Shown here: piece after piece, positions 17,701 through 20,700 of the stretch
Layout: every line of letters begins with the position of its first letter
Position numbering within the stretch: the stretch's first letter is position 1
From: an uncultured Gemmatimonadaceae bacterium
GTDB taxonomy: Bacteria; Gemmatimonadota; Gemmatimonadetes; Gemmatimonadales; Gemmatimonadaceae
Assembly: GCA_963790305.1 (NCBI GenBank)
Contig: CAWBOC010000013.1
Span: 160,001 to 224,000 of the forward strand
Reading direction: 5' to 3'
Length of the DNA stretch: 64,000 bases
Program-made: the position numbers

Positions 17701-20700
17701 CGCGCGAGCGGGGCTACACCGTCGACATCGCGGGCTTCGAGGCCGCGCTCGAGACACAGCGTCAGCAGTCGCAGGCCGATCGGAAGGCGAAGAAAATCGG
17801 CGTGGCGGCCGACCAGCTGACGGAGGGCGCGTGGGAGGCGGAGTCTGCGCCCGCGACGCCTGTTGGACCCGCGCGACATCAGCGAAACGGCGTTCGTGGG
17901 GTACGAGACCGTCGAGATCGAGACGCAGGTGACCGCGGTTCGCCGCCTCGGTGACGACCGGCTCGCGGTGATGCTGCGCGAAACGCCGTTCTACGCCGAG
18001 TCTGGCGGCCAGATCGCCGACGTCGGAGAGATCATCGGCGAAGGGTGGCGGGTCGACGTCGACGACGTGCGCCGCGTCGACGGCCGGGTGGCGGCGTTAG
18101 GCAAGCTCACCGGGTCGTTCAAGTTCGGCCGCGTCATCGCGCGCGTGCCGAGCGATCGCCGCCGGGATACCGAGCGCAATCACACCGCGACCCATCTGCT
18201 GCACGGTGCGCTGCGGGAGGTCCTCGGCGAGCACGTGCATCAGGCGGGCTCACTCGTCGCGCCGGACCGGCTTCGCTTCGACTTCACGCACCACGGGCCC
18301 GTCAAGCCCGAAGCGCTGACGGAGATCGAAGAGCGCGTCAATCGCGCCATCTGGGCCGACGTCGACGTGCAGTTCACGCAGAAGTCCTATCGTGAGGCGG
18401 TCGAAGCGGGCGCCATGGCGCTGTTCGGCGAGAAGTACGGCGACGTCGTGCGCGTCGTCTCCATTCCGGGATACTCCGTGGAGCTGTGCGGCGGAACGCA
18501 CGCGCGCAACACCGGACAGATCGCGCTCTTCAAGATCGTGGCGGAAACCGGCGTGGCGGCCGGCGTGCGCCGGATCGAGGCGGTCACGGGCCCGCGCGCC
18601 TACGAGCTCATTCGCGAGGAAGAGCGGCGACTTCAAAAGATCGTCGACCTCGTGAAGGGAACGTCCGACGGCGTCGTGAAGCGGGTCGAGGCGCTGGTGG
18701 AAGAGCGGCGTCAGCTTCAACGCCGGCTCGATGACAGCCTGCGTGGTGGGGGCGATCAGGTGGCAACGCTCGTCGCCGGTGCACGACAGGTGAATGGCGC
18801 GCGCGTGGTTGCCGCCGAGGTGCGTGTCGGCGACGCGAAGGAGCTACAGGCGCTGGCGGATGCGCTTCGCGAGAAGCTCGGGACGGGCGTGGGGGTGTTG
18901 GGCGCGTCGATCGGGGACAAGACGACCATGCTCGTCGTCGTCACCGACGATCTCCGTGAGAAAGGGGTACGTGCCGATGCCCTCGTGCGCGACATTGCGG
19001 CGATCGCGGGCGGGCGTGGGGGTGGCAAGCCGCACCTGGCGCAGGCTGGCATTCCCGACGCCACGAAGCTTCCTCAGGCGATCGAGCACGCCCCGGGGAT
19101 CATCGCGCGTGCGCTCGCGACCGCCTGACGACGTGCGCCAGCCGTCACCGGGGACAGTCGGTGCCTGGCTGGAGGGTCGCACGCCTCCGCCTCCCCAGAT
19201 GCTGCGATCGCGAATCCTGCTGGCGTTAGGCGATGGACTCGGCCGCGCCGTGGCGGACACCGAGGAGGTGTGCCTCGATGCCGCGGAGCGCGTGCTGTCC
19301 CATCTGTTCTCGGACGGCACGGGAGGCCGACACGAGGCAGTCGACTTGCTGGCAGCCGACGCGCTGGTGACGTACGCCCTCGAGTTCGCCGCCGAGACGC
19401 CGCCGAGAGTTCGAGGTCAGCGCGACGCTCGCGCTCGAGCGCTTTGGACAGCTTGCACGGGGATGCGCATGAGCATCCTGACGCGCTTGGAGGCGAATGG
19501 CGGACTGGCCGTCCTCGTCGACCCCAACCGGACAGCGCCGGACGAAGCGGAACAGCTCGCGGCGCGGGCCGCCGATGAGGGGGTCGCCGCGCTCCTCGTC
19601 GGCACGTCGTACGCCGATGAGGCAAATGTCGGGGCGGTGGCCCGCGCGATGAAGCGCGGAGCGCCGGCCGTCCCGCTTCTCGAGTTTCCTGGTGCGGCCT
19701 CGCATCTCGTGCCGGACGTGGACGCGGTCCTCTTGCTCTCGCTCGTATCCGGGCGCAACGCTCAGTACTTGATCGAAGAGCACGTTCGCGCCGTTCCGTT
19801 TTTCGAGCGGCATCCGGACGTGGAGCCGATCAGCACTGCGTACCTGCTGATCGACGGTGGCGAAGTGACCTCGGTCGAAGCGGTGAGCCAGACGCGTCCG
19901 CTCCCGGCGGGCAAGCCGGAGCTCGTGGCCGCGCACGTGCGCGCGGCAATGCTGGTGGGCATGGCGGCGACGTACCTCAATGCAGGAAGTGGTGCGCGGC
20001 GGCCGGTGTCCCCTGTTCTCATTCGTGCGGCGCGCGCGGCGACCAGAGGTCCGCTCTTCGTCGGCGGAGGCGTGCGAACCGCGGACGCTGTTCGCGCAGC
20101 GCGAGACGCGGGAGCGGACTTCGTGGTCGTTGGCACGTTGGTCGAGCGACAAGGCGCGCCGGCGGTCCGCGAGCTCGCGCGCGCCGCGCGCGTATGATCG
20201 ACATTCACACGCATCTCCTTCCGGGTGTCGACGACGGCTCGCCAAGCATCGACGTCTCGGTCCCCATTCTTCAACGCTTTGCCGATGAGGGAGTGGAGGT
20301 CGTCGTCTGCACACCCCATCTCGAAGCGGGTCGGGCCGCACGAGCGCCTCACGAGCAATATGATGCGATCTTTCGCGAGCTCAGCGCGCGCGCTCCGGGC
20401 GGTATCTCGCTGCTGCGCGGATGGGAAATCATGATCGACGTTCCGGAGGTCGATCTCAGCGACCCTCGCCTGGGGCTTGGCGGCTCCGTGGCCGTGCTCG
20501 TCGAGTTTCCCCGCATGAACGTTCCCGCGGCGGCCGCACGAGAGCTGATGCGCCTGAGGCACAGCGGTATCATCCCGGTGCTGGCGCACCCCGAGCGGTA
20601 CTGGGGATGCACGCCGGACATGGTTCGCGCGTGGCGCGACGCAGGCGCCGCGATCCAGATGGATGCGTCGATGCTGCTCGGCGGGCCGAATTCGTCGAAG

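What a model noticed while it worked through the whole genome (the two positions that open the first line are those of the whole stretch)
19466..20197. Archaeal-type ether-lipid enzyme trio (GGGP synthase, DGGGP synthase, DGGGPL reductase) co-inherited at three unlinked l [...]
GGGP synthase (after alaS), a DGGGP-synthase-like prenyltransferase (C6:86213-87016, between bshA and bacA) and an archaeal-type geranylgeranyl reductase (C6:378812-379984, beside mreB) sit at three separate housekeeping loci yet are present or absent together across Gemmatimonadaceae. This points to one working pathway for saturated isoprenoid ether lipids in about a quarter of these soil bacteria.
Evidence so far: Same 61 family genomes: GGGPS 16, reductase 18, DGGGPS-like 20; all 16 GGGPS genomes have the other two, 41 have none. 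Each gene keeps its neighbours. Best families/structures: group II GGGPS, archaeal DGGGPS (6m31, E 7e-20), Thermoplasmatales DGGGPL reductase E 7e-64.
(Added by a program. Inside this text positions count along the whole contig: contig position 160,001 is position 1 of the stretch shown here. "Call 12" and the like, gene names such as g00115 and contig names such as C1 are that model's own, and its searches are not shown. The text may have been shortened before it was handed on; [...] marks where a part breaks off. The agent that wrote the report below was given it as the finding of a first reader that could run no searches.)

Follow-up and report, generated by a model that had tools for sequence, protein, structure and literature searches.

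The report
Archaeal-style lipid genes lost together repeatedly
A group of common uncultured soil bacteria keeps, at three separate places in the chromosome, genes like those archaea use to build their ether-linked membrane lipids, and relatives have dropped these genes together many times, which is good genetic evidence for one working pathway of a kind already proposed for related bacteria but never yet shown by chemistry.

Summary
Confirmed and extended. The window encodes an intact group II GGGP synthase; DGGGP-synthase-like and reductase genes lie elsewhere, and a missed 2x[4Fe-4S] ferredoxin overlaps the reductase start. Of 151 family genomes, 35 have all three and 98 none; most partial cases are assembly gaps. 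In two sister families the same 24 of 100 genomes have all three. Carriers are not one clade (a single loss is rejected); each gene keeps its locus and non-carriers show clean empty sites, so this is an ancestral set lost jointly several times. One genus lost only ferredoxin plus reductase. A cytoplasmic deacetylase follows the set (48 of 53 carriers, 2 of 98 others) and is a candidate extra member, confounded by linkage. Against: no G1P dehydrogenase, CarS or dedicated GGPP synthase; no lipid data; no cultured carrier seen; this genome alone has Asn at the catalytic acid (error or dead allele). The gene set is published for FCB bacteria, and Gemmatimonadetes were already listed with both synthases; the scan noted it before in other phyla. 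New here: the repeated co-loss evidence and the deacetylase lead.

The parts
19469..20197 (+). Group II (bacterial IIb-type) GGGP synthase, 242 aa. Partner genes lie outside the window on contig C6: DGGGPS-like 86213-87016(+), ferredoxin 378585-378815(+), geranylgeranyl reductase 378812-379984(+), candidate deacetylase about 381187-381954(-)
19979..19981 (+). Codon 171 of GGGPS: AAT (Asn) at the catalytic acid position (Glu180 of F. johnsoniae GGGPS); base-call error or private mutation
   Evidence: Asp in 89, Glu in 8, Asn in 1 (this genome) of 98 Gemmatimonadales rows; GAT/GAC in 7 of 7 close relatives; no Asn in 150 distant representatives
19130..19472 (+). Small conserved hypothetical gene between alaS and GGGPS (approximate ends); present in carriers and non-carriers, so not part of the pathway; probably frameshifted here by one extra base near 19405
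   Evidence: (no Pfam)
16332..19128 (+). alaS, split by a frameshift in this assembly; upstream landmark of the GGGPS locus
   Evidence: alaS in 29 of 30 family and 23 of 24 sister-family GGGPS loci
20194..20949 (+). CpsB/CapC-type PHP phosphatase overlapping the GGGPS stop; kept in non-carriers
20949..21509 (+). gmhA-like sugar-phosphate isomerase (name from sequence recall); downstream landmark, kept in non-carriers

Best explanation
Four genes at three unlinked housekeeping loci form one biosynthetic pathway for a saturated di-isoprenyl glycerol ether lipid, inherited from the ancestor of Gemmatimonadales and lost as a unit in many lineages. Steps: (1) a housekeeping prenyl synthase supplies a short prenyl diphosphate, most likely GGPP (inferred, weak); (2) GGGPS joins it to glycerol phosphate by an ether bond (inferred from homology and conserved active site; G1P versus G3P open); (3) the UbiA-family enzyme adds the second ether chain (inferred); (4) the ordinary bacterial CdsA and CDP-alcohol transferases add a head group in place of CarS (inferred from published E. 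coli work); (5) the ferredoxin feeds electrons to the flavin reductase, which saturates the chains, a dispensable last step (inferred); (6) possibly a cytoplasmic CE4 deacetylase tailors an N-acetyl-sugar head group (speculative). Shown here: the genes, their residues, their loci and their joint repeated loss. Not shown: any activity, product, amount or expression. The cells also keep the normal G3P-acyl route, so the ether lipid would sit beside ester lipids.
For: Joint presence: 35 all / 98 none of 151; in 201 phylum genomes the same 31 have both synthases and 30 of them the reductase. All 10 genomes lacking only GGGPS (or GGGPS and reductase) also lack alaS, i.e. assembly gaps. RpoB tree needs 11 changes on 110 family genomes, 7-8 forced by strong branches; 9 changes, 6 forced, with IQ-TREE on 60; single-loss tree rejected, p-AU 3e-52. 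Independent pairs DGGGPS vs GGGPS 6 of 6 same direction, p 0.03. Same neighbours in three families, alaS and/or gmhA next to GGGPS in 4 of 8 non-Gemmatimonadota bacterial loci, clean empty sites in non-carriers. GGGPS tree splits by family. Ferredoxin beside the reductase in 29 of 30 and 24 of 24 loci. Active sites: GGGPS D18, S47, Y125, Y169, acid at 171, limiter L80; DGGGPS N56, D60, D64, Y119, D174, D177, D181 match MjDGGGPS N62/D66/D70/Y125/D180/D183/D187; reductase GxGxxG, C46, PxxYxWxFP. gpsA, plsY, cdsA present. Cloacimonetes homologues made unsaturated PG-archaeol in E. coli (PMC7852524).
Against: No G1P dehydrogenase (0 of 151 at E<=1e-15; weak hits in 5 of 5 sister-family genomes are dehydroquinate-synthase-like) and no CarS (0 of 5). 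No extra prenyl synthase marks carriers: most genomes of either kind have two, and the IspA-like one has Tyr five residues before the first Asp-rich motif in 3 of 3 carriers, which by recalled rule favours C15. All three enzymes are below equivalog cut-offs; UbiA and GGR families are promiscuous. DGGGPS vs reductase independent pairs 5 same, 1 unchanged, p 0.06. Within-family protein distances track RpoB weakly (rho 0.18, 0.32, -0.16). This genome's GGGPS has Asn171. Species tree rests on RpoB alone.
Confidence: 0.78

Rival explanations
1. Same pathway, but the product is a minor specialised lipid (a dephosphorylated, glycosylated or otherwise tailored ether used as anchor, carrier or envelope additive, in the manner of the Bacillus PcrB lipid), not a bulk archaeal-type phospholipid; chain length or backbone chirality may differ from archaeol. 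This overlaps the best explanation and disputes only the 'mixed membrane' reading.
For: Easily and repeatedly lost; no CarS, G1P dehydrogenase or dedicated GGPP synthase; a deacetylase tracks the set and a GT2 glycosyltransferase is in 47 of 53 carriers but 19 of 98 others; Firmicutes process their PcrB lipid by acetylation (PMC7888582).
Against: Second ether enzyme and reductase are both kept, as for a diether core; bacterial CdsA/PgsA can finish archaeal lipids according to PMC7852524.
Confidence: 0.4
2. The genes do unrelated jobs (reductase on quinones or polyprenols, UbiA enzyme on another acceptor) and co-occur through shared ancestry or shared habitat.
For: Below-cut-off scores; PRK12884 ties with the DGGGPS model at 143.8 bits; GGR paralogues act on other isoprenoids (PMC10821996).
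Against: Six or more independent joint changes at three unlinked loci with no opposite pair; exact concordance in 100 sister-family genomes; the one true partial pattern drops the last step only.
Confidence: 0.07
3. The enzymes run backwards to degrade archaeal lipids, as Coleman et al. suggested for FCB bacteria without G1P dehydrogenase.
For: No G1P dehydrogenase; suggestion in PMC6431249.
Against: A double-bond reductase with its ferredoxin is co-inherited, which has no use in degradation; diphosphate-releasing prenyl transfer is effectively one-way (established knowledge); forward activity shown for Cloacimonetes homologues.
Confidence: 0.03
4. In this particular genome the pathway is recently dead: Asn171 is real and inactivates GGGPS, an early stage of another loss.
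For: Asn is private: 0 of 97 other Gemmatimonadales rows and 0 of 150 representatives; this genome's RpoB and reductase have no private change at conserved columns, so substitution errors are not rife.
Against: The assembly has indel errors (alaS split; extra base at 19405); a single G-to-A change explains it; the other genes are intact.
Confidence: 0.3

Closest known systems
Archaeal-like lipid gene set of Ca. Cloacimonetes and other FCB bacteria (Villanueva et al. 2021, PMC7852524)
   Same: GGGPS + DGGGPS + archaeal-like reductase, no G1P dehydrogenase, no CarS, bacterial G3P-acyl route kept; ancient origin proposed.
   Different: There the two synthases are adjacent and were assayed; here they are unlinked, unassayed, in an order whose named records are mostly soil, peat and sediment MAGs. 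'Gemmatimonad' has 0 occurrences in its main text; its supplements could not be read and may list the phylum. No co-loss analysis in the parts I read.
Coleman et al. 2019 survey (PMC6431249)
   Same: States that all 12 FCB phyla surveyed, Gemmatimonadetes among them, have GGGPS and DGGGPS orthologues; one Gemmatimonadetes MAG appears in the DGGGPS tree and, by figure order, the GGGPS trees.
   Different: One genome, no reductase or ferredoxin, no within-phylum distribution.
Group IIb GGGPS of Flavobacterium johnsoniae (PDB 4JEJ)
   Same: Best structure match, E 1e-36; D29, S58, I90, Y134, Y178 positions kept (D18, S47, L80, Y125, Y169); no aromatic hexamer anchor.
   Different: Catalytic Glu180 is Asp in 89 of 98 Gemmatimonadales rows (also in 44 of 137 distant representatives) and Asn in this genome.
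Archaeal ferredoxin-linked DGGGPL reductase (T. acidophilum Ta GGR, PDB 3OZ2)
   Same: E 1e-62; motifs kept; 4Fe-4S gene in the locus as in T. acidophilum and methanogens.
   Different: 216 bits against a 780 cut-off; substrate untested.
Bacillus PcrB heptaprenylglyceryl phosphate synthase (group Ib)
   Same: Same fold family, bacterial ether lipid of unknown role.
   Different: Distant (E 7e-9), C35 donor, one chain, AraM supplies G1P (recalled).

Membership tests
Group II GGGP synthase | Closer to group II than to group I/PcrB/MoeO5 | tested here: met
   4JEJ 1e-36, MtGGGPS 3e-30, PcrB 7e-9, MoeO5 1e-8
Group II GGGP synthase | Mg-binding Asp and Ser; two Tyr; phosphate loops | tested here: met
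   D18 96/98, S47 98/98, Y125 98/98, Y169 97/98, GSG 98/98
Group II GGGP synthase | Catalytic Glu (E180) | tested here: inconclusive
   Acid kept order-wide (D 89, E 8 of 98) but Asn in this genome
Group II GGGP synthase | C20 limiter on helix 3' (I90 in Fj) | tested here: met
   L80 in 98 of 98
Group II GGGP synthase | Equivalog cut-off TIGR01769 | tested here: not met
   129.9 vs 161.55 bits; family model TIGR01768 passed
Group II GGGP synthase | GGPP + G1P activity | not testable with these tools
   needs assay
DGGGP synthase | N62, D66xxxD70, Y125, D180/D183/D187 motifs | tested here: met
   N56, D60, D64, Y119, D174, D177, D181 conserved in >=95% of 56 rows
DGGGP synthase | Closest characterised UbiA subfamily is DGGGPS | tested here: inconclusive
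   6M31 8e-20 vs ChlG 3e-7, but NF009521 143.8 vs cut-off 296 and tied with PRK12884; no UbiA-wide tree built
DGGGPL reductase (GGR) | GxGxxG, catalytic Cys, RxxF, PxxYxWxFP, xGD | tested here: met
DGGGPL reductase (GGR) | Ferredoxin in the locus | tested here: met
   29 of 30 and 24 of 24 loci
DGGGPL reductase (GGR) | Lipid rather than quinone substrate | not testable with these tools
   only indirect, by co-loss
Canonical archaeal pathway | G1P dehydrogenase | tested here: not met
   0 of 151; weak hits in 5 others are AroB-like
Canonical archaeal pathway | CarS | tested here: not met
   0 of 5 carriers, controls ring
FCB archaeal-like lipid gene set (Villanueva 2021) | GGGPS, DGGGPS and GGR in one bacterial genome with gpsA/plsY/cdsA and without egsA/carS | tested here: met
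FCB archaeal-like lipid gene set (Villanueva 2021) | Expression and lipid product | not testable with these tools
   no RNA holder listed; no lipid data

The most novel reading that the evidence does not exclude
About a quarter to a third of Gemmatimonadaceae, and part of two sister families, natively make a saturated diphytanyl-type ether lipid without G1P dehydrogenase, CarS or a dedicated GGPP synthase, finish it with an amino-sugar head group through a co-inherited cytoplasmic deacetylase, and so are true mixed-membrane bacteria that add to the 'archaeal' lipid pool of ordinary soils; their clean, repeated co-loss makes the order a natural screen for the missing enzymes, including the unknown bacterial G1P source.
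Probability: 0.2. Interest if true: 0.85.

Novelty: new member of a known kind. Interest (0 to 1): 0.5.

Why it matters
No bacterium has been shown chemically to make archaeal-type isoprenoid ether membranes in the papers I read (PMC7852524; PMC11334171 says the same of mixed heterochiral membranes). Earlier evidence was gene presence and heterologous assay from one phylum. Joint loss of unlinked genes in many independent lineages is strong evidence that the synthases, reductase and ferredoxin act together in living cells. It also gives a method (profile the carriers against nested non-carriers) to find the missing steps, which already yielded one candidate. If the lipid is archaeol-like, soil archaeol could not be read as purely archaeal (its use as an archaeal marker is recalled). 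Limits: the kind of system is published and no cultured carrier was seen, so the test needs heterologous expression or enrichment.

Tried and rejected
One-clade explanation: rejected; the second AU test (carriers alone, without outgroup) did not finish. Assembly gaps as the cause of absence: rejected for the non-carriers inspected, accepted for 10 partial genomes and likely for G134 (alaS at a contig end). Recent transfer into this genome: GC3 of GGGPS, DGGGPS and reductase at the 29th, 79th and 61st percentile and conserved loci argue against. Asp171 as an order-specific novelty: rejected, Asp is in 44 of 137 distant representatives. Neighbours alaS-orf, PHP, gmhA, bshA, bacA, mreB as pathway members: rejected, kept in non-carriers. 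A carrier-specific third prenyl synthase or CDP-alcohol transferase: not seen. GT2 at C6:181153: only loosely associated. Fusions among distant GGGPS representatives were to phosphopantetheinyl transferase or a deaminase, uninformative. Reads for codon 171: no close run; no RNA holder listed; laid contigs did not resolve the codon. A ferredoxin-like relic in non-carrier G057 (58% over 26 aa) is too short to lean on. The co-loss screen used one extra carrier and one non-carrier over roughly 0.55-0.66 Mb, so genes elsewhere were not screened. No structure or complex prediction was run; tetraether synthase was not searched by family (only a motif list). G033's partial RpoB falls outside the family and was dropped from pair tests and the reduced tree.

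Full report
Observation. The three genes exist as open frames at the stated places. GGGPS starts at window 19469; it matches PF01884 and passes TIGR01768 but not the equivalogs; the UbiA protein scores best on DGGGPS/PRK12884 models and the reductase on NF041160, both under cut-off. Best solved structures are FjGGGPS, MjDGGGPS and TaGGR. The organism is a Gemmatimonadaceae by the titles of its nearest named loci. The assembly has indel errors (alaS split; one extra base at 19405 against a near-identical contig).

Distribution. On the same 151 family genomes, orthologue-level hits were separated from paralogues by wide score gaps: GGGPS 42 (E<=6e-35, next 4e-5), DGGGPS-like 51 (E<=1e-30, next 2e-17), reductase 45 (E<=3e-141, next 3e-25). 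Patterns: all three 35, none 98, no GGGPS 8, no reductase 6, no DGGGPS 1, DGGGPS only 2, reductase only 1. All 10 genomes with DGGGPS but no GGGPS also lack alaS, the essential gene next to it, so these are gaps. Genus g18 has really lost ferredoxin and reductase: mreB is followed directly by the deacetylase in 2 of 2 genomes inspected. Three other reductase-less genomes (77-80% complete) and the DGGGPS-less one (86%) were not inspected. In 201 phylum genomes at least 90% complete, the same 31 carry both synthases and 30 the reductase: 21 of 97 in family f2, 3 of 3 in f3, 0 of 60 in nine further families (two weak UbiA paralogues in f10 aside). The 40 f1 genomes in that draw overlap the family draw. 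Unpublished genomes G007, G033, G034, G134 and G297 are all carriers inside these tallies (49 of 147 family carriers without them); no conclusion depends on them.

History. RpoB was obtained for 110 of the 151 family genomes plus 5 outgroups. Carriers are scattered: 11 changes, 7-8 forced by strong branches; an IQ-TREE run on 60 of them gives 9 and 6; the tree that makes all non-carriers one side is rejected (p-AU 3e-52). Independent pairs, after leaving out 12 partial genomes and G033: DGGGPS vs GGGPS 6 of 6 (p 0.03), vs reductase 5 same and 1 unchanged (p 0.06); with the partial genomes left in the medians were p 0.016, 0.06 and 0.03, never an opposite pair. Direction is loss: GGGPS follows alaS in 29 of 30 family and 23 of 24 sister-family loci, DGGGPS follows bshA in 30 of 30 and 23 of 23, the reductase lies by mreB in 28 of 30 and 20 of 24; non-carriers have the flanks joined (PHP or gmhA straight after alaS-orf in 11 of 12, bacA or birA after bshA in 5 of 5, ald next to mreB in 3 of 3). 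alaS and/or gmhA flank GGGPS in 4 of 8 bacterial loci from outside the phylum, so the locus is older than the order. The GGGPS tree groups all 98 Gemmatimonadales rows, split by family, next to other bacteria (FastTree with long-branch warnings). Within the family, protein distances follow RpoB poorly, so the vertical reading rests on synteny more than on tree congruence.

Enzymes. Using residues named in PMC9385802 (sections 7, 8 and part of 15; its Y134/Y178/E180 numbering fits the F. johnsoniae chain): GGGPS keeps D18, S47, Y125, Y169 and a Leu at the C20 limiter; it lacks the aromatic hexamer anchor. The catalytic Glu is Asp in 89, Glu in 8 and Asn in 1 of 98 rows; the Asn is this genome, AAT against GAT/GAC in 7 of 7 close relatives. 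Asp is common elsewhere (44 of 137), Asn is not, so the order's enzyme is probably active while this copy is either mis-called or newly dead; reads did not settle it. DGGGPS and reductase motifs are conserved in 56 and 55 rows.

Missing and extra parts. No G1P dehydrogenase (0 of 151; AroB-like weak hits in 5 others), no CarS (0 of 5). gpsA, plsY, cdsA and CDP-alcohol transferases are present. Carriers have no extra prenyl synthase and the IspA-like enzyme looks FPP-type by a recalled rule, so the donor is open. Comparing 710 called genes of contigs C6 and C13 with syntenic slices of one carrier and one nested non-carrier gave 12 genes, including the trio. Two were followed. A CE4 deacetylase with intact TFDD and HxxxH motifs and no evident signal peptide is in 48 of 53 carriers (the 5 missing are 69-79% complete) and 2 of 98 non-carriers, beside the reductase in 20 of 24 sister-family loci and not found at orthologue level in 5 of 5 f2 non-carriers. 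It is near the reductase, so one deletion could take both; but g18 kept it while losing the reductase, and its two non-carrier holders are that genus's close relatives. Pair test not significant (p 0.125). A GT2 is looser: 47 of 53 and 19 of 98.

Mechanism. Most likely GGGPS, DGGGPS and ferredoxin/reductase make a saturated di-isoprenyl glycerol ether, finished by bacterial head-group enzymes, alongside ester lipids (0.78). Whether it is a bulk phospholipid or a minor tailored lipid, its chirality and its chain length are open. All chemistry is inferred.

Known work. PMC7852524 (parts 1 and 3-6 of 8 read; supplements unreadable) describes the same set without egsA and carS and assays two enzymes; its preprint has no 'gemmatimonad' either (term search). 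PMC6431249 (passages, section 8, supplement term search; table ticks not rendered) already places both synthases in Gemmatimonadetes. A Cloacimonadota preprint (passages) reports 11 of 46 and 14 of 46 genomes and suggests loss. PMC10821996, PMC11334171, PMC7888582 and PMC12419801 were seen as passages only. Searches returned no paper on this set's distribution, co-loss or lipids in Gemmatimonadota; the library lacks most subscription papers. Earlier scan notes record the same kind of set in WOR-3, Eisenbacteria, TA06, Poribacteria and Cloacimonadota, none in this phylum. All bacterial and archaeal records among the 74 named loci are MAGs, from a truncated scan; I saw no cultured carrier.

Verdict. 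Real, well supported, a new member of a known kind. The added value is the repeated joint loss at unlinked loci, the ordered loss of the last step, and one candidate new member. Interest 0.5.

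Noticed in passing
window 16332-19128 and 10529-12426: alaS and ftsK are each split by frameshifts, pointing to uncorrected indel errors in this assembly.
   Followed up: partly
window about 19130-19472: A conserved ~115-aa gene of no Pfam family follows alaS in carriers and non-carriers across two families (motif LLAADALVTYA).
   Followed up: partly
G000 C6 about 381187-381954 (L002:9188-9955, minus): Cytoplasmic CE4 deacetylase co-distributed with the ether-lipid genes, 48 of 53 versus 2 of 98.
   Followed up: partly
G000 C6:181153-181779 (L515): Polyprenol-phosphate-type GT2 after plsY-gpsA-merR, present in nearly all carriers and a fifth of non-carriers.
   Followed up: partly
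P0045, P0100, P0109, P0120, P0124, P0139: Distant GGGPS representatives fused behind a phosphopantetheinyl transferase domain; may be read-through of adjacent genes.
   Followed up: no
G100 C11:1782-2951 (L065): A second reductase and deacetylase copy 93% and 83% identical to this genome's, on a small contig: contamination or transfer.
   Followed up: no
L285 (G033 C155): Partial RpoB of G033 branches outside the family, suggesting a foreign contig in that bin.
   Followed up: no
L177, L179, L178: Some genomes carry an extra divergent prenyl synthase, in two cases next to a flavin oxidoreductase-like frame, unrelated to carrier status.
   Followed up: no
G103 C1 and C2 (L345, L350, L351): Three mreB copies, two away from the mreC locus.
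   Followed up: no
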